64,000 nucleotides of DNA from an uncultured Acidobacteriota bacterium (lineage in GTDB: Bacteria; Acidobacteriota; Thermoanaerobaculia; Gp7-AA8). A program made the position numbers and the translations under genes. Below are positions 59,164 through 63,797 of the stretch, one piece after another (the first letter of the stretch is position 1; every line of letters starts with the position of its first letter). The notes under the pieces were generated by a model. It was not told the origin of the DNA. It worked only from the letters and a program-made list of their open reading frames with translations, and did not search any database. Location: NCBI GenBank assembly GCA_963822445.1, contig CAWGHO010000003.1, forward strand, positions 192,001 to 256,000. Reading direction: 5' to 3'.

Positions 59164-61095
59164 TCAATCACGGAACGCCGTGGCCCCGTTGGCGAGCGAC
59201 AACATCGCCGCGGCCAGAACGAGCCCGTGTGCGGGCGCCTGATACGACGGGGTGAAGACGAAGAAAGCGGTCACGTCGATGATGGAGAGGATCATCGCTC
59301 GCGCCGCGACCGCGGCGAGAAGTCCGATGACGACGAGCATCAGCGTTGAACCGCGTCTCCACGGTGCGCTCAGGCAGAACAGAAGCATGGCCGCCACGAA
59401 GAAGATGGGGCAGGTCCACTGGTAGGCGCGACCGATCATCGCCAGCGCGCGCATGCGGAACGAATCCATGGGGTGAAGAGCGGGTGGGCCGGATACCGCG
59501 ACGGAGTATCGCTCCACCGACATCCGCATCTCGGGGCTCACCGCGACGGGCGACTCGATTTTCAGCGGAATCCTCTCGATGCGCCGGCCCCGCAGCGAAA
59601 CGACGAGGTAGTGATGGTGCGCCGGCACGCGGAGCTCGAATCGCGTCGAACGATCCGGACTCGCGAGGCGCGCGATTCTCGCCTCGGGGACGGCGCGGCC
59701 ATCCTCGGCTTCGATGATCAGTTCGACCGGGCCCTCGCGGTGAAACAGGGAGCCGGTGAGGTGCAGGGTCACGGTCTCCTCTCTCGGCGCGAGCGGCGTG
59801 TGCGTGAGCTCGTAGTCGCGGAGCTCCACCGGCAGGCCCTGGGTGTAGTGACGGGCCAGCACGAAGTCGGCGAAGGCGACGATGCGATACAGCGCGCGGG
59901 CCCACGTTCGTGCGATCTGCCTTCGCTGCCCTTTGAGGACGGGAGGCATGAGCGTGGCGCGGACGCCTCGCGTCTCGAGTCGTCCCGCACGGCTCGCTGC
60001 CTCGACCTCACGCGTGATGCGATCGTAGTACGCGCGAACCGCGGAGCCGCCGCGATCGTAGTAGCCGGCCTTCTGCACGGCCTCGCGGAATGCCCACATG
60101 AACGATGACCCGCCGATGTCGCCATCTCCCAGTTCGCCGGAGACGCGCGCCCAGCGTTCGCCGACCTCCCCTTCGAGGAAGGGCCGAAGCTCGCCGAAGG
60201 CAGGGCTGACCGCGTACACGCGTTCGCGAGTCTCCCTGGGCATCGGCATCCGTGGCCGCGTCGGATACTGGCGCACTCCGGTCATCGTTCCGTATGCGCG
60301 GACGAATGACGTCTCCTTGAACTCGACGACTGCCCAGATCCCGTAGCGCATTCCGTTCGCTACGACCAGTGCCCCGTGCGCGAGCGCGAACATCGCCACC
60401 GGAACGCTCGCCATCACGAGCGTTCGCTTCCATCCGGCACGCAGCAGAAGGGCGAGCAGCACGCAGGCCGCGAAGGGCACGATCCACACGCCTTCTTCGC
60501 GGATGTGCCAAAAGACGGCGAGCGCGACACCGCAGAGAATCAACCAGGGGACAACTCGCGCGGTGGGACGGTCGATCCGGAACAGCGCCCCGGCCGCGCC
60601 GGCGACGATCAGCAGCGCCATCGAGGAGGTGAAATGCTCGCGCGACACGATGCTCGGCAGATCGTCCGCAAAGGTCATGGGGTTGAACACCACGACCACG
60701 AACAGCGCCAGCCTCCAAAGCGGGGAGCGAATCAACGGCGCGACCGCCCTGACGAGGATGAAGGCAGCGATCACGTACAACACCTGTTGAGCAAAGAGCA
60801 GCGGAACGTGCAGTGACGACGTGAACGCGATCCACAGCGGATAGGCCGGACCCTTGATCAGCGTCAGGTGGTCGTACGGTCCGAGCCAGTGCCCATCGAG
60901 GATGGAGCGGGCTTTCCGCAGGAACCAGAGGTCGTCGTAACCGGCGAAGCTGAAGGCGGCGACGCGCCAGAATGCGACGAGCCACAACTTCGTGATCGCG
61001 GCGGCGACGATGCCGAGGATCTCGAAACGCCGCGCGGCGGAGCTCACGGGCAGGAGTATAGAAGCGGGACCGCGGCGGCCTTGTGGCCGAATCAC
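59164..61095 (-). CDS. Polytopic membrane protein, possible GT-C glycosyltransferase
   Basis: TM1 followed by a YDD acidic motif, TLIKGPAYP, multiple TM helices, IREEG.W and a large periplasmic loop. Confidence 0.6.
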   Translation of the reverse strand: MIRPQGRRGPASILLPVSSAARRFEILGIVAAAITKLWLVAFWRVAAFSFAGYDDLWFLRKARSILDGHWLGPYDHLTLIKGPAYPLWIAFTSSLHVPLLFAQQVLYVIAAFILVRAVAPLIRSPLWRLALFVVVVFNPMTFADDLPSIVSREHFTSSMALLIVAGAAGALFRIDRPTARVVPWLILCGVALAVFWHIREEGVWIVPFAACVLLALLLRAGWKRTLVMASVPVAMFALAHGALVVANGMRYGIWAVVEFKETSFVRAYGTMTGVRQYPTRPRMPMPRETRERVYAVSPAFGELRPFLEGEVGERWARVSGELGDGDIGGSSFMWAFREAVQKAGYYDRGGSAVRAYYDRITREVEAASRAGRLETRGVRATLMPPVLKGQRRQIARTWARALYRIVAFADFVLARHYTQGLPVELRDYELTHTPLAPREETVTLHLTGSLFHREGPVELIIEAEDGRAVPEARIARLASPDRSTRFELRVPAHHHYLVVSLRGRRIERIPLKIESPVAVSPEMRMSVERYSVAVSGPPALHPMDSFRMRALAMIGRAYQWTCPIFFVAAMLLFCLSAPWRRGSTLMLVVIGLLAAVAARAMILSIIDVTAFFVFTPSYQAPAHGLVLAAAMLSLANGATAFRD

Positions 61096-61222
61096 TCCGG
61101 GGAGAGTTCTCGACGCCTTGCCCGGATTCGCGACAACAAGACTTCGTTACCGGGTCGTGACGCTCAAGGCGAGTCCAAACCAGCTACCGTCGTCCGAAGC
61201 CGCGATCTTCGGGACAAACGAA

Positions 61223-62280
61223 ATGACTCGAGCACTCCTCGCCCTGCTTCTCATCCTCGGACAATTTCCTGTCGCCGCCGCCACGCGCCGGCGAGCGGTG
61301 CAACATCCGTCACCGCCCGTCCCGCCAGCGGCCATCGTGGCGGCCGCAACTCAGGTCGCCGAAGCTGCATTGAAGGCGGGCGTTCCGGCGGTTCAGATCG
61401 CGGTGTCCGAGCGCGGACGGATCATCTACTCAGAAGCATTCGGCCTGACCGACAAACTCAGTGCGACCGCGGCAACACCGAAATCCGTGCTGCAGATCGG
61501 CTCGATCACGAAGCAATTCACTGCAGCGGCGATTCTCCGGCTGGCCGAGCGCGGGGCTCTGACCCTCGACGATCGCATCGAGAAACACCTTCCGGAGTTC
61601 AACCCCCGAGGAGCGACGATCACGCTGCGGCAGCTCCTCACTCACACTTCGGGAGTTCGTCGCGAGTGGTTCCCACCCGGGCCGCCGGGGATCAACCTCA
61701 TTGCGCCGGTCACCCGTGAGCAGACCATCCAGGGCCTGAACAGCGGGCAACTGCTCGATTCCACGCCCGGCACGAAGTGGAGCTACAGCAACGCCGGCTT
61801 CATGCTGCTCGGCCTGGCGATCGAATCGATCACGGGTACGTCGTACGCCGATTTCATCCATACCGAGTTCGCGTTGCCGCTCGGGCTCCTCGACACCGGC
61901 GTGTGCGGAACGTCCAACCTGCCGGTGCCTGAAGGTTACGGCCTGTCCGGAGCGACGTGGACGCGAATGCCGGCGTTCCATCCGACGGTGATCCTGTTTT
62001 CCGGTTCGCTTTGCTCGACTGCATCCGACCTCGCCCGCTGGGCGCACCTCCTCGCAACCGGCCAAGCCATCCTGCCTGATTCGTACGCGAAGATGATCAC
62101 CCCCGCACGGCTCGCGAACAACGTCAACGTGCTTTACGGACTCGGCCTGGACGTGAAGAACGTGCTCGGGCGTCCGGCCGCGGCGCACGGCGGCTCCGTG
62201 TGGGGCTTCGAGAGTTTTCTCCTCTATTTCCCCGAACAGGAGATCGCCGTGGCGGTCATCACGAATGCGTTCCCCGGACC
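61223..62280 (+). pseudogene. Serine hydrolase (beta-lactamase class C/PBP family), 5' part, interrupted by IS110
   Basis: Signal peptide, IGSITK (SxxK), LLTHTSG, YSN, HGG. The frame continues at 63734 after the IS. Confidence 0.88.
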
Positions 62281-62366
62281 AGATGAGATGAGAAGGCCAA
62301 CCTCCCACGCAGTCGCAGGAATCTGCGCTGCAAGGAATGCGTCGAGCGCAAGAAAGGAGATTGGCC

Positions 62367-63473
62367 GTGAAAAAGTCTACCAGCGTCGTCACGTGTACGA
62401 GCATGCAGAGCAATATCCGTGAAGCCGAGGTGATCGGGATCGATCTTGGAGATCGCGCATCGCACTTCGTGGGTCTGAACAGAAGCGGCGAAGTAGTGGC
62501 CACAGGAAGGGCGACGACGACAGCGACGGCGATCGCCAACGAGTTCGGCGCGATCGGACCAAAGTTGATCGCCATCGAGACAGGTACCCACTCTCCTTGG
62601 GTCTCGAGACTGCTCACGCAGTTGGGCCATCGCGTAGTCGTGGCCAACTCCCGAAAGCTTCGTCTGATCTACGAAAACCGCCGCAAGAACGACCGCGTTG
62701 ACGCCGAGTACCTGGCACGGCTGGTGAGGATGGACCCGAAACTGCTCGAGCCGATCACGCATCGTTCCGAGCGCGACCAGCAGCATCTGGCACTTCTGCG
62801 TTCGCGCGACAAGCTGGTGCGGACTCGCACAGGTCTGATTACGCATGTTCGGGGCACGGTCAAGTCGATCGGTCTGCGGCTGCCGGCTTGCTCTGCAGAG
62901 GCGTTCGTAAGTCGGGCGATGCCTCTGATCCCGAAAGAGCTGAAAGCTGCTCTTGACCCTGTTCTTCGCAACGTCGAGCAGCTGAACAAAGACATCGCCG
63001 GCTACGACCGCAAGATCGAGCAACTCGCCAGGACCGAGTACCCGGCCGCGAAGCTGCTCATGCAGATCACCGGTGTGGGACCCGTGACGTCGGTGGCGTT
63101 CGTGGTCACGGTGGGCGACCCGGGCCGGTTCAGGAAAAGTCGCACGGCGGGAGCGTGGGTCGGTCTCACGCCGGGCCAATCCGCCTCGGGTCAGCAGGAC
63201 CCCCAGATGAGGATCACCAAAGAAGGAGACAACTATCTGCGACGGCTACTGGTCAGTTGCGCGCAGTACATCCTCGGGCCGAATCGACCAGACTCGGATC
63301 TGCGCCGGCACGGGTTGGCGCTGGCGGCGCGAGGCGGAAAGAACGCGAAGAAACGAGCCGTGGTCGCGGTCGCACGAAAACTCGCGGTGCTCATGCACAG
63401 GCTGTGGCGTACGGAAGGCGTGTACGAACCTCTGTTCAACGCCAACAGGAGTGCCGAGCACTCAGCAGCTTGA
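62367..63473 (+). CDS. IS110-family DEDD transposase/recombinase
   Basis: GIDLG, AIETG, KNDRVDA (DEDD RuvC-like) and ITGVGP, GLTPGQSASG, KEGDNYLR, AVARKL (Tnp20). RBS AAGGAG before GTG. Confidence 0.95.
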   Translation: MKKSTSVVTCTSMQSNIREAEVIGIDLGDRASHFVGLNRSGEVVATGRATTTATAIANEFGAIGPKLIAIETGTHSPWVSRLLTQLGHRVVVANSRKLRLIYENRRKNDRVDAEYLARLVRMDPKLLEPITHRSERDQQHLALLRSRDKLVRTRTGLITHVRGTVKSIGLRLPACSAEAFVSRAMPLIPKELKAALDPVLRNVEQLNKDIAGYDRKIEQLARTEYPAAKLLMQITGVGPVTSVAFVVTVGDPGRFRKSRTAGAWVGLTPGQSASGQQDPQMRITKEGDNYLRRLLVSCAQYILGPNRPDSDLRRHGLALAARGGKNAKKRAVVAVARKLAVLMHRLWRTEGVYEPLFNANRSAEHSAA

Positions 63474-63730
63474 GAACCAGGTAGAACCGATCAGCAAAGA
63501 AAGAAACTCGACTCGATCCCTCATCCGGGTGACTGCGAGCGGCGGCTTGGTCGGCAGCGATGCCAGACCGTGGACCAGATGGCAGCACCCAGTTGAATCG
63601 GACCTCAGCATGCACCGAGCTCGATCGAGCTCACCAAGAGTGCGAATGGAAGCAAGGTCAGGACGAGCGGCGAGAGACAAAGGAGGGCGGCGCCACGTCG
63701 CCGCCCCTTGACAGGATCAGGCCTTCTCAT
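63474..63730 (+). ncRNA. Putative bridge/seek RNA region of the IS1111-type element
   Basis: ~255-nt non-coding region downstream of the transposase. Contains matches to both strands of the target (GGCGGCT 63541, GGACCAG 63572) and of the donor junction (CTCATC 63520, ATGGAAG 63646). RNA boundaries unknown. Confidence 0.75.
63708..63713 (+). promoter_or_regulatory. Outward-facing -35 hexamer TTGACA at the IS right end
   Basis: Consensus TTGACA 20 nt from the right end, in the position expected for a circle-junction promoter. The junction -10 is weak (GAAGAT). Confidence 0.6.
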
Positions 63731-63733
63731 GGA

Positions 63734-63797
63734 AGCCGCCTACAGGCCACACCTCCTGGCCGCCGCCGTGGCGCAAGCCGCGCTCCCCGCGCAGTAG
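63734..63797 (+). pseudogene. 3' remnant of the IS-interrupted serine hydrolase
   Basis: Joining 62280 to 63734 reads ...NAFPGP-AAYRPHLLAAAVAQAALPAQ* in frame. Confidence 0.85.

What the first reader, a model, noticed from the sequence alone, without database searches (positions are those of the whole stretch)
62272..63745. IS1111-type element with readable bridge-RNA guides for both target and donor
Seen: the reconstructed empty target is GGACC-AG-CCGCC and the circle junction is CATGGA-AG-ATGAG. The downstream non-coding region contains GGCGGCT (63541-47, reverse complement of AGCCGCC), GGACCAG (63572-78, target top strand), CTCATC (63520-25, reverse complement of GATGAG) and ATGGAAG (63646-52, donor top strand). 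The donor guides appear to enclose the target loop. Known: IS110/IS1111 recombinases use an element-encoded RNA that pairs with target and donor. Inference: an intact, probably recent, programmable recombinase with an AG core and a nested guide layout.
Basis: partly seen in the sequence, partly recalled or inferred. Interest (0 to 1): 0.8.

Follow-up and report, generated by a model that had tools for sequence, protein, structure and literature searches.

The report
IS1111-type insertion sequence with bridge RNA
This is an intact, recently active IS1111-type mobile element whose own downstream RNA carries short guides matching its insertion site and its own ends: a clear new example of a known RNA-guided recombination system.

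Summary
All four short matches sit at the stated coordinates, and the element is a 1453-bp IS1111-group insertion sequence (window 62283-63735). It is present in three 100%-identical copies in this genome.

The target guides are real. In 24 related elements with different insertion sites, the same two loop positions match each element's own flanks (11.2 of 14 positions against 5.7 for non-cognate pairs; 0 of 20000 permutations). An unoccupied repeat in the genome equals the flanks of one copy joined by a single AG, so there is no duplication and AG is the core.

The left donor guide (AUGGAAG) is invariant. It changes to AUAGAAG exactly where the element end changes from CATGGA to CATAGA.

It is not conserved among relatives with the same end, is usually part of a helix, and arises by chance in 12% of shuffles. 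A better candidate is CUCAGCA (63604-10), just before the next hairpin, where two positions covary with the element's left end.

The layout is a three-way junction closed by an outer stem, as already predicted for IS1111 elements. This is a new member of a known kind.

The parts
62281..62282 (+). Left copy of the AG core (target side), preceded by the left target half CGGACC (62275-80)
   Evidence: AG precedes the left end in all 3 copies in this genome and in all close-family relatives.
62283..63735 (+). The insertion sequence, 1453 bp counted with one AG (63734-35)
   Evidence: three copies 100% identical over query 4-1469; identity ends at these borders; an empty paralogous site carries a single AG.
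62283..62287 (+). Left terminal extension ATGAG (right donor half in the circle junction)
   Evidence: Reads ATG(A/G)(G/A/T) in relatives.
62288..62298 (+). Left subterminal inverted repeat ATGAGAAGGCC
   Evidence: Reverse complement of 63720-30. Both repeats change together in distant relatives: AGTAGGCC with GGCCTACT, AGTCGGTC with GACCGACT.
62295..62366 (+). 5' UTR fold in which GGCCAACCUCC (62295-305) pairs with GGAGAUUGGCC (62356-66) and covers the ribosome-binding site
   Evidence: MFE -36.6 kcal/mol, z -3.08, 3 of 200 shuffles fold as well. Relatives show paired changes by eye, e.g. GGCCGGTCTCC with GGAGACCGGCC.
62367..63473 (+). Transposase gene (GTG start, 368 aa): DEDD RuvC-like domain plus Tnp domain with GLTPGQSASG
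   Evidence: PF01548 E 5.9e-17, PF02371 E 2.2e-21; NF033542 228.9 bits, cut-off 140; IS621 8wt6 E 3.8e-7. The start is conserved as ATG/GTG-AAG-AAG-TCT after AAAGGAG in close relatives.
63507..63667 (+). Predicted bridge RNA (long seekRNA form), about 161 nt, closed by outer stem 63507-18 with 63656-67
   Evidence: outer stem, cognate -12.1 vs non-cognate -9.1 kcal/mol, 0/5000 permutations; 4 of 4 outer-stem pairs have changes on both sides. The length fits the published long seekRNAs of 148-172 nt (PMC13604230 Table 1).
63520..63525 (+).
   Evidence: chance 604/5000; not conserved; this strand is helix P0 in many relatives (down to -13.9 kcal/mol) but weak here (-3.4).
63527..63590 (+). Target-binding arm: stem P1 (63527-36 with 63582-90) enclosing an internal loop and hairpin P2 (63549-69, GCGA loop)
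   Evidence: P1 cells 94.4% paired, 3 pairs with changes on both sides. P2 cognate vs non-cognate 0/5000.
63541..63547 (+). Right target guide GGCGGCU (5' side of the loop); pairs with top strand AG-CCGCC
   Evidence: mean 6.25 of 7 identities to the cognate right flank in 24 lineages vs 3.46 non-cognate; 0/20000 permutations.
63572..63581 (+). Left target guide GGACC-AG (3' side of the loop) followed by AUG, which equals the first bases of the left end
   Evidence: mean 4.96 of 7 vs 2.27 non-cognate; 0/20000. The AGAU that follows the guide is kept in nearly all relatives.
63604..63610 (+). Better candidate for the right donor guide, CUCAGCA, one base before hairpin P3 (the same geometry as the right target guide before P2)
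   Evidence: in 25 distinct combinations it is complementary to core plus left end at 4-6 of 7 positions. Position 2 pairs with left-end base 4 in 24/25 (A:U 6, G:C 18). Position 3 pairs with base 3 in 25/25 (G:C 23, T:A 2); this column is the best of all aligned columns for left-end base 4 (27/28).
63612..63643 (+). Hairpin P3 (GCAC 63612-15 with GUGC 63640-43 and an upper stem)
   Evidence: 97.5% of cells paired; the base pairs do not vary, so this is conservation only.
63645..63652 (+). Left donor guide A-AUGGA-AG; same sequence as the top strand of the right end, ATGGA-AG
   Evidence: 7.00 of 7 in 29 relatives, the top signal of the scan. AUGGA with end CATGGA, AUAGA with end CATAGA, in every combination where the end was read; this is one split in the tree.
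63685..63706 (+). GC-rich hairpin (GGGCGGCG / CGCCGCCC) directly before the -35 box
   Evidence: Relatives keep a hairpin here with different sequences, by eye. Function not tested.
63708..63713 (+). TTGACA at a fixed distance from the right end: likely -35 of a junction promoter formed in the circle
   Evidence: TTGAC is conserved at the same spacing in most relatives. Junction promoters are known for this family (PMC12288879 introduction). The -10 would be GAAGAT across the junction, which is my reading and was not tested.
63720..63730 (+). Right subterminal inverted repeat GGCCTTCTCAT
63736..63740 (+). Right target half CCGCC
   Evidence: shared by all three copies.
60992..62282 (+). Host gene of the beta-lactamase/serine hydrolase family (PF00144), cut near its 3' end by this copy
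   Evidence: E 2.2e-61; the frame continues for 19 codons after the element, to a stop.

Best explanation
The element is an autonomous IS1111-group insertion sequence of the IS110 family. It encodes a DEDD/serine recombinase and, downstream of that gene, a bridge RNA (seekRNA) of about 160 nt on the same strand.

The RNA folds into an outer stem that closes a three-way junction.

- Target-binding arm. One branch has an internal loop. Its 5' side (GGCGGCU) pairs with the top strand of AG-CCGCC. Its 3' side (GGACCAG) pairs with the bottom strand of GGACC-AG.
- Donor guides. These lie in the junction strands. AUGGAAG, after hairpin P3, pairs with the bottom strand of the right end ATGGA-AG. Most likely CUCAGCA, before P3, pairs imperfectly with the top strand of (A)G-ATGAG.

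The excised circle (right end, AG, left end) is recombined with the target at the AG core, without a duplication. The preferred target is a GC-rich REP-like repeat. The copy in the window hit a look-alike 13-mer inside a serine hydrolase gene.

Shown here: the borders, the copies, the protein family, guide-flank covariation, the helices, and covariation of the left donor guide.

Inferred: that the RNA is made, which strand is transcribed, the circle and its promoter, the chemistry, and the right donor guide (about 55% for 63604-10).
For: - Protein: PF01548 and PF02371; NF033542 'IS110 family RNA-guided transposase' 228.9 bits against a cut-off of 140; the C-terminal domain aligns to IS621 with the serine of SG in place; the GL-P----SG motif is read.
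- Copies: 3 copies at 100% identity, with flanks CGG(A/T)CC-AG ... AG-CCGCC.
- Empty site: it carries a single AG and lies in a REP-like repeat. The repeat occurs 47 times at 2 mismatches or fewer, against 18 for the control.
- Guides against flanks in 24 lineages: 11.2 of 14 cognate vs 5.7 of 14 non-cognate, 0/20000 permutations. The cognate site is the single best in 9 of 24 lineages, and the others are mostly tied with sister lineages that share the target.
- Natural retargeting: the 83%-identical relative L004 has loop CCGCCGGCU and flank CCGGCG, where the window has GCGGCGGCU and CCGCC.
- Structure: 86.5% of cells paired vs 26-45% when the partners are slid; covariation 0.266 vs 0.104; 0/500 shuffles.
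- Left donor guide: 7.00 of 7 across 29 relatives, and AUGGA changes to AUAGA together with the end.
- Right donor guide candidate: 24/25 and 25/25 pairing at the two variable positions; best column of the alignment; A:U arises in at least 3 separate clades.
- Order of guides and RNA length agree with published IS1111 seekRNAs (PMC11187229 section 9; PMC13604230 Table 1).
Against: - No RNA evidence: no listed sequencing run is RNA and Rfam has no matching family.
- The non-coding region as a whole does not fold better than shuffles (z -0.90).
- Wobble pairs do not tell the transcribed strand: 15 G.U against 17 A.C cells. The strand rests on analogy and on guide order.
- Guide matching is loose in some lineages. 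The five copies in G208 match the left guide at only 3 of 7. L017 matches the right guide at 3 of 7 and L035 at 4 of 7.
- Four perfect CGGACCAGCCGCC sites in the genome are empty.
- The covariation of the left donor guide is a single split in the tree.
- The right donor guide candidate is only 5 of 7 complementary here, does not pair with the first base of the core, has one counter-example lineage (L026/L049), and a 5-of-7 match is not significant on its own.
- Helix P0 is not significant in the cognate-against-non-cognate test (1140/5000).
Confidence: 0.85

Rival explanations
1. One reading: the right donor guide is CUCAUC (63520-25), 5' of the target arm, and the left donor guide is 3' of it, so the two donor guides flank the target loop.
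For: - CUCAUC is a perfect 6-nt complement of G-ATGAG.
- It lies one base before stem P1, a geometry like that of the other top-strand guide.
- In the window's subclade (L001, L004, L005, L009) helix P0 is weak (-3.0 to -5.2 kcal/mol), so this strand may be free in the junction.
- The variants CUCGUC and CUCGUU in L005 and L009 would still pair through G.T or U.G wobbles (my reading).
- Column 33 is the second-best column for left-end base 4 (22/28).
Against: - Chance gives such a match in 604 of 5000 shuffles.
- Relatives with the identical left end read CCUGUC (L011), CUUGUU (L015) and an unrelated sequence (L028), while the rival site 63600-11 is identical in six of them.
- In most relatives this strand is paired in P0.
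- No reverse-complement signal at these columns reached the top 40 of the family scan.
- Distant groups with other left ends show no match here (by eye).
Confidence: 0.2
2. The RNA selects only the target (a seekRNA in the narrow sense). The element's ends are recognised by the protein through the subterminal inverted repeats, and the donor-like motifs in the RNA are conserved for structure or protein binding.
For: - Siddiquee et al. describe only target matches and suggest that end recognition may differ between the families (PMC11187229 sections 6, 9).
- The left donor guide covaries in only one split of the tree.
- The right donor guide is imperfect.
- RNAalifold pairs CC of 63603-04 with GG of AUGGAAG inside the RNA.
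Against: - AUGGAAG is the strongest signal of an unbiased scan and matches the end including the core.
- It changes with the end.
- Its position mirrors the left target guide: CG, six bases, AG, three bases, stem.
- Two positions of the candidate right guide follow the left end in the exact register predicted from the target loop.
- IS621 uses such pairing, with an interrupted right donor guide (PMC11208158 section 8).
Confidence: 0.12
3. The matches are coincidences in a GC-rich 3' untranslated region, and site choice is made by the protein alone.
For: Each 7-mer alone arises by chance in 2-5% of shuffles. The target 13-mer is no more frequent in the genome than its reversed control (11 vs 10).
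Against: Both target guides together arise in 5/5000 shuffles. Guide-flank covariation over 24 lineages gives 0/20000. The helices are conserved and covary.
Confidence: 0.01

Closest known systems
IS1111-group elements with seekRNA (ISEc11, ISPa11, ISKpn4, ISPst6; Siddiquee et al. 2024, PMC11187229; sections 6, 9, 12, 13 read)
   Same: - Subterminal inverted repeats with short terminal extensions.
- Long non-coding region downstream of the transposase gene.
- GL-P----SG motif in the transposase.
- No target duplication.
- Two RNA segments that match overlapping halves of the target, the top-strand match 5' of the bottom-strand match.
- Short and long RNA forms of 82-96 and 148-172 nt, which fit the target arm (64 nt plus flanks) and the whole fold (161 nt) here.
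   Different: - Different host phylum (relatives are Acidobacteriota records), different target and different ends.
- The transposase is 368 aa, against 330-350 aa quoted for the family.
- No experiment exists for this element.
- That paper does not describe donor guides.
IS621 bridge RNA (IS110 group; Durrant et al. 2024 PMC11208160, passages and section 12; Hiraizumi et al. 2024 PMC11208158, passages)
   Same: - Each DNA is read on both strands around a 2-nt core.
- The bottom-strand guide covers the left half and the top-strand guide the right half.
- The right donor guide can be interrupted and imperfect.
- The recombinase has DEDD and serine domains.
   Different: - The RNA lies downstream, not upstream, of the gene.
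- The guide order within the loop is reversed.
- The core is AG, not CT.
- The donor guides lie in a three-way junction that also carries the target arm, not in a second internal loop.
- Long subterminal inverted repeats are present.
- Only the C-terminal domain aligns by sequence (E 3.8e-7).
Predicted IS1111 bridge RNAs with donor-binding bases in a multi-loop (Durrant et al. 2024, section 12 and legend of Extended Data Fig. 10; figures not visible to me)
   Same: The bridge RNA lies in the right end, and the donor-binding bases lie in a multi-branch loop rather than a simple internal loop.
   Different: I could not see the figures or supplements, so I cannot say whether the published layouts place the right donor guide before or after the target arm.
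ISPpu9 / ISPpu10 of Pseudomonas putida (PMC12288879, passages)
   Same: Recombination at an AG dinucleotide, insertion into REP sequences, circular intermediates, and a structured 5' UTR that limits translation of the transposase.
   Different: Those elements belong to the IS110 group with the RNA upstream, and they carry extra small RNAs (Asr9, Ssr9) that were not looked for here.

Membership tests
IS110 family (IS1111 group) | N-terminal DEDD RuvC-like transposase domain | tested here: met
   PF01548 E 5.9e-17, profile 1-153 of 155. The D, E, D, D motifs (IDLG, IETG, NDRVDA) are read in the translation. Assigning them as catalytic residues is recalled, not tested.
IS110 family (IS1111 group) | C-terminal PF02371 domain with GL-P----S(t)G motif | tested here: met
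   PF02371 E 2.2e-21. GLTPGQSASG. The serine aligns with the SG of IS621. The motif is as defined in PMC11187229 section 6.
IS110 family (IS1111 group) | NCBIfam equivalog NF033542 above its cut-off | tested here: met
   228.9 bits, cut-off 140.
IS110 family (IS1111 group) | Subterminal inverted repeats of 7-17 bp | tested here: met
   11 bp: 62288-98 and 63720-30. They covary in distant relatives.
IS110 family (IS1111 group) | Longer non-coding region downstream of the transposase gene | tested here: met
   84 nt upstream (62283-62366) and 262 nt downstream (63474-63735).
IS110 family (IS1111 group) | Site-specific insertion without target duplication | tested here: met
   Three copies share CGG(A/T)CC-AG / AG-CCGCC. 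The empty repeat has one AG.
seekRNA / bridge RNA systems | [quoted passage not shown] | tested here: met
   63541-47 then 63572-78. Covariation with flanks in 24 lineages.
seekRNA / bridge RNA systems | Donor-binding guides for both halves of the circle junction | tested here: inconclusive
   The left donor guide is clear. The right donor guide has two candidates: 63604-10 is favoured by covariation at two positions, and 63520-25 is not conserved.
seekRNA / bridge RNA systems | The RNA is made, binds the transposase and is needed for transposition | not testable with these tools
   No RNA run holds the stretch.
IS110 family (IS1111 group) | Circular intermediate with a junction promoter | not testable with these tools
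   Only the conserved TTGACA at 63708-13, at fixed spacing from the end, was seen.

The most novel reading that the evidence does not exclude
In this Acidobacteriota clade the donor-binding site is a three-way junction from which the target arm grows, and the right donor guide lies between the target arm and hairpin P3.

In the window's own subclade the helix at the base of the target arm (P0) has decayed. This frees a second hexamer (CUCAUC) that is perfectly complementary to the left end. The element may therefore carry two alternative right donor guides, used for example in different steps (excision against insertion) or as an evolutionary hand-over of the guide from one junction strand to the other.
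Probability: 0.12. Interest if true: 0.6.

Novelty: new member of a known kind. Interest (0 to 1): 0.35.

Why it matters
This is a clean natural case. One conserved donor module (the same ends and the same left donor guide) is combined with at least a dozen different target specificities in related soil bacteria, including a close pair that differ by two guide bases and follow two variants of the same genomic repeat.

That series is a ready-made test set for the rules of target programming in IS1111-type recombinases, which are far less studied than IS621. It also points to where the donor guides lie in their three-way junction.

For the genome itself, the element marks recent mobility, a REP-like repeat used as a landing site, and one truncated hydrolase gene.

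Tried and rejected
- Rfam: no family matched; the best E-value was 1.6.
- Folding the whole downstream region alone: z -0.90, not informative.
- The look-up of sequencing runs: no RNA holder listed. The only hits were two soil-metagenome contig sets holding 0.10 and 0.05 of the words. I did not lay reads on them, so there is no evidence on circles or expression.
- Transcribed strand from wobble pairs: 15 G.U vs 17 A.C cells in well-paired columns, undecided. UUCG and GCGA loops on the + strand in P2 of several relatives are a weak hint only (by eye).
- Helix P0, cognate against non-cognate: 1140/5000, not significant, because the strands are C-rich and similar across the family.
- Unanchored longest-common-substring scoring of guides: it picked up stem bases (GACCG), so I replaced it with core-anchored scoring.
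- Handshake-type pairing:
  - The U after the right target guide (63548) could pair with the A before the core in the donor, but relatives have U or C there. Left as speculation.
  - The base after the left donor guide equals the first right-flank base in 13 of 29 lineages, including all three non-C cases, by eye. Not pursued.
- Rows dropped:
  - One search used the 24 distinct guide pairs that had both flanks of 12 nt or more. Elements at contig ends (L005/L010, L015, L019, L024, L031) and the broken L006 were left out.
  - One search dropped L020 (1-nt deletion in the left end) and L045 (left end not read).
  - One search used 55 of 62 rows. It dropped rows without a left end, L020, and L023, whose junction strand my pattern mis-anchored.
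  - Seven distant or odd loci gave no pattern match: L018, L034, L067, L073, L074, L075, L077.
- Supplements and figures of the papers were not visible. The published IS1111 donor-loop drawings may already show the layout described here.
- Searches for prior work on IS1111 donor loops listed no dedicated study.
Full report
**What is there.**
The window holds a 1453-bp element, 62283-63735, counted with one AG.
- An ORF of 368 aa runs from a GTG at 62367, seven bases after AAAGGAG, to 63473.
- It carries the two Pfam domains of IS110-family transposases: PF01548 at E 5.9e-17 and PF02371 at E 2.2e-21.
- It scores 228.9 bits against NCBIfam NF033542, 'IS110 family RNA-guided transposase', cut-off 140.
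- Its C-terminal domain aligns to the IS621 recombinase of PDB 8wt6 (E 3.8e-7), with the serine of the SG motif in place.
- It reads GLTPGQSASG, the GL-P----S(t)G motif given for IS1111 transposases (PMC11187229, section 6).
- Eleven-base subterminal inverted repeats lie at 62288-98 and 63720-30.
- The non-coding region is 84 nt upstream and 262 nt downstream of the gene. This is the IS1111 arrangement (PMC11187229 section 6; PMC11208160 section 12).

**Copies, borders and target.**
The genome (3 contigs, 6.0 Mb) holds three copies, 100% identical over 1466 bases. Identity stops at the same bases in all three. The flanks read:
- CCCCGGACC-AG / AG-CCGCCTAC in the window;
- GGCGGACC-AG / AG-CCGCCGAG;
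- GGCGGTCC-AG / AG-CCGCCGCA.

The pattern CGGNCCAGCCGCC occurs 11 times unoccupied, against 10 for the reversed control. Four of these are perfect CGGACCAGCCGCC sites. Several lie in a GC-rich repeat with two hairpins. One of them (L057) reads exactly as the two flanks of copy L002 with a single AG between them. So the empty-site reconstruction is right, there is no duplication, and AG is the shared core. The repeat with this centre occurs 47 times at 2 mismatches or fewer, against 18 for the control.

The copy in the window is not in the repeat. It hit the same 13-mer near the 3' end of a PF00144 serine-hydrolase-family gene, whose frame goes on for 19 codons after the element.

All four are at the stated coordinates. 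In 5000 dinucleotide-preserving shuffles of the downstream region, core-anchored matches as long as those seen arose as follows:
- left target guide: 243 times;
- right target guide: 114 times;
- left donor guide: 143 times;
- both target guides together: 5 times;
- a CTCATC-type match of 6 nt or more: 604 times.

The single sequence is therefore suggestive for the target guides only.

**Relatives settle the target guides.**
A protein search of 401 genomes of the same class found the transposase in 51 at E of 1e-40 or below. Named records among the closest relatives are Acidobacteriota. The near family (50-84% identity) keeps almost the same ends, AG-ATG(A/G)(G/A)ATGAGAAGGCC and GGCCTTCTCATGGA-AG, but sits in many different sites.

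In every one, the RNA region has the same frame: GACUGCG, a variable stretch, a hairpin, a second variable stretch, then AGAU-GCAGC. The first stretch is the reverse complement of core plus right flank. The second is a copy of left flank plus core.

Over the 24 distinct guide pairs with both flanks readable, cognate identity is 11.2 of 14 against 5.7 of 14 for non-cognate pairs. By guide this is 4.96 vs 2.27 of 7 for the left guide and 6.25 vs 3.46 of 7 for the right guide. None of 20000 permutations reached the observed sums.

The fit is not perfect:
- the G208 lineage (five copies) matches the left guide at 3 of 7;
- L017 matches the right guide at 3 of 7, and L035 at 4 of 7.

The 83%-identical relative L004 shows natural retargeting: CCGCCGGCU with flank CCGGCG, where the window has GCGGCGGCU with CCGCC. 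CCGGCG is also the commoner variant of the repeat in this genome.

The order, top-strand match 5' of bottom-strand match, is the one reported for all tested IS1111 seekRNAs (PMC11187229, section 9).

**Fold.**
RNAalifold on 30 relatives recovers an outer stem, stem P1 of the target arm and hairpin P3. With the helices that I read from the sequences (outer stem in two parts, P1, base of P2, P3), the results are:
- 86.5% of cells pair, against 26-45% when the partners are slid by 1-3 columns;
- the covariation score is 0.266 against 0.104 for shuffles (0 of 500);
- 11 pairs change on both sides.

Cognate strands of the outer stem and of P2 pair better than non-cognate ones (0 of 5000 each). Helix P0, at the base of the target arm, is strong in many relatives but fails this test (1140 of 5000) and is weak in the window's subclade.

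In window coordinates:
- outer stem 63507-18 with 63656-67;
- strand J1 63519-26;
- P1 63527-36 with 63582-90;
- loop with GGCGGCU 63541-47;
- P2 63549-69;
- loop with GGACCAG-AUG 63572-81;
- strand J2 63591-63611;
- P3 63612-43;
- strand with A-AUGGA-AG 63645-52.

The whole is about 161 nt, within the 148-172 nt of published long seekRNAs (PMC13604230, Table 1).

**Donor guides.**
A scan of every 7-nt window of the circle junction, in both orientations, against every alignment column gave AUGGAAG as the top signal, 7.00 of 7 in 29 relatives.

More distant relatives (38-43% identity) have the right end CATAGA, and all of them read AUAGA in the RNA. On the transposase tree this is one split, so it counts as a single event.

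The guide sits in the same frame as the left target guide: CG, six bases, AG, three bases, stem.

By the same analogy, the right donor guide should lie one base before the inner hairpin. There the window reads CUCAGCA (63604-10), where perfect complementarity would give CUCAUCU. In 25 distinct combinations of core, left end and RNA, this stretch is complementary at 4-6 of 7 positions.
- The two positions opposite variable DNA bases follow them: 24 of 25 for left-end base 4 (A:U 6, G:C 18, one A:C) and 25 of 25 for base 3 (G:C 23, T:A 2).
- An unbiased scan finds this very column as the best partner of left-end base 4 (27 of 28; next best 22).
- The A:U state occurs in at least three separate clades; the T:A state occurs in one.

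IS621 also has an interrupted right donor guide with flipped-out bases and a non-canonical pair (PMC11208158, section 8).

I rate this site at about 55%. A 5-of-7 match alone means little, and L026/L049 are a counter-example.

- Relatives with the same left end read CTCGTC, CTCGTT, CCTGTC, CTTGTT or unrelated sequence there.
- In most relatives the strand is paired in P0.
- The scan shows no signal at these columns among its top 40.
- In its favour: P0 is weak in the window's subclade, the two nearest variants differ by transitions that would keep wobble pairs, and column 33 is second best for left-end base 4 (22 of 28).

I give it about 20%.

So the donor guides do not flank the target loop. 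However, the target arm does sit inside the junction that carries them, which is the multi-loop arrangement noted for many IS1111 elements (PMC11208160, section 12; I could not see the figures).

**What is not shown.**
- No RNA data exist here and Rfam has no model for this RNA.
- Wobble pairs do not tell the strand. The + strand is inferred from the published family behaviour, from the left/right logic of the guides and from the promoter layout.
- The circle and its promoter are inferred from a TTGACA (63708-13) kept at fixed spacing from the end.
- The 5' UTR folds so that the left end covers the ribosome-binding site (z -3.08). This would limit translation, as described for ISPpu9 (PMC12288879, passages).

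**Verdict.**
This is a correct and careful observation of an ordinary but well-preserved member of a known system. The target guides and the left donor guide are confirmed, the proposed right donor guide is probably wrong, and the 'nested' layout is a known IS1111 feature. Its value lies in the family series rather than in novelty.

Noticed in passing
window 62295-62366: The 5' UTR pairs the left-end bases GGCCAACCUCC with GGAGAUUGGCC, directly before the GTG start, covering the ribosome-binding site (z -3.08). Relatives show paired changes (GGCCGGTCTCC with GGAGACCGGCC). This is likely translational control of the transposase.
   Followed up: partly
window 63685-63713: A GC-rich hairpin abuts a conserved TTGACA at fixed spacing from the right end. 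Relatives keep a hairpin there with other sequences. It may end the bridge RNA or mask the -35 box of the junction promoter.
   Followed up: no
own genome, e.g. L056, L057, L060 (G000:C3:169172, 175484, 666832): A REP-like repeat made of two GC-rich hairpins around CGGNCCAGCC(G/C)C(C/G)G occurs 47 times at 2 mismatches or fewer, against 18 for the control. It is the natural landing site of this element and, in its CCGGCG variant, of related elements in other genomes.
   Followed up: partly
window 60992-62282 and 63736-63794: A PF00144 (beta-lactamase/serine hydrolase family) gene is cut 20 codons before its stop by this copy. The ORF now runs on into the element for 47 further codons.
   Followed up: partly
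L062 (G158:C153), upstream of the element: A short extra copy of target plus the first bases of the left end (GGTGCCAG-ATGGGATGAG) lies about 30 nt before the real left junction, among AAAAAGGTGCC repeats. It may be a remnant of an earlier insertion or excision.
   Followed up: no
L006 (G267:C5:720970-725075) and L067 (G345:C4:804100-806800): These are decayed copies. L006 has a stop inside the transposase gene and has lost its left end. In L067 the RNA region is cut after the target arm and unrelated sequence follows.
   Followed up: no
L064-L066, L072-L074 (G154, G346, G082, G182): A distant subgroup has TG, GG or CG instead of AG at the junctions and the left end ATTGG. Its RNA reads CG in the left donor guide and CCAACCA before P3. 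The core dinucleotide therefore differs within the wider family.
   Followed up: partly
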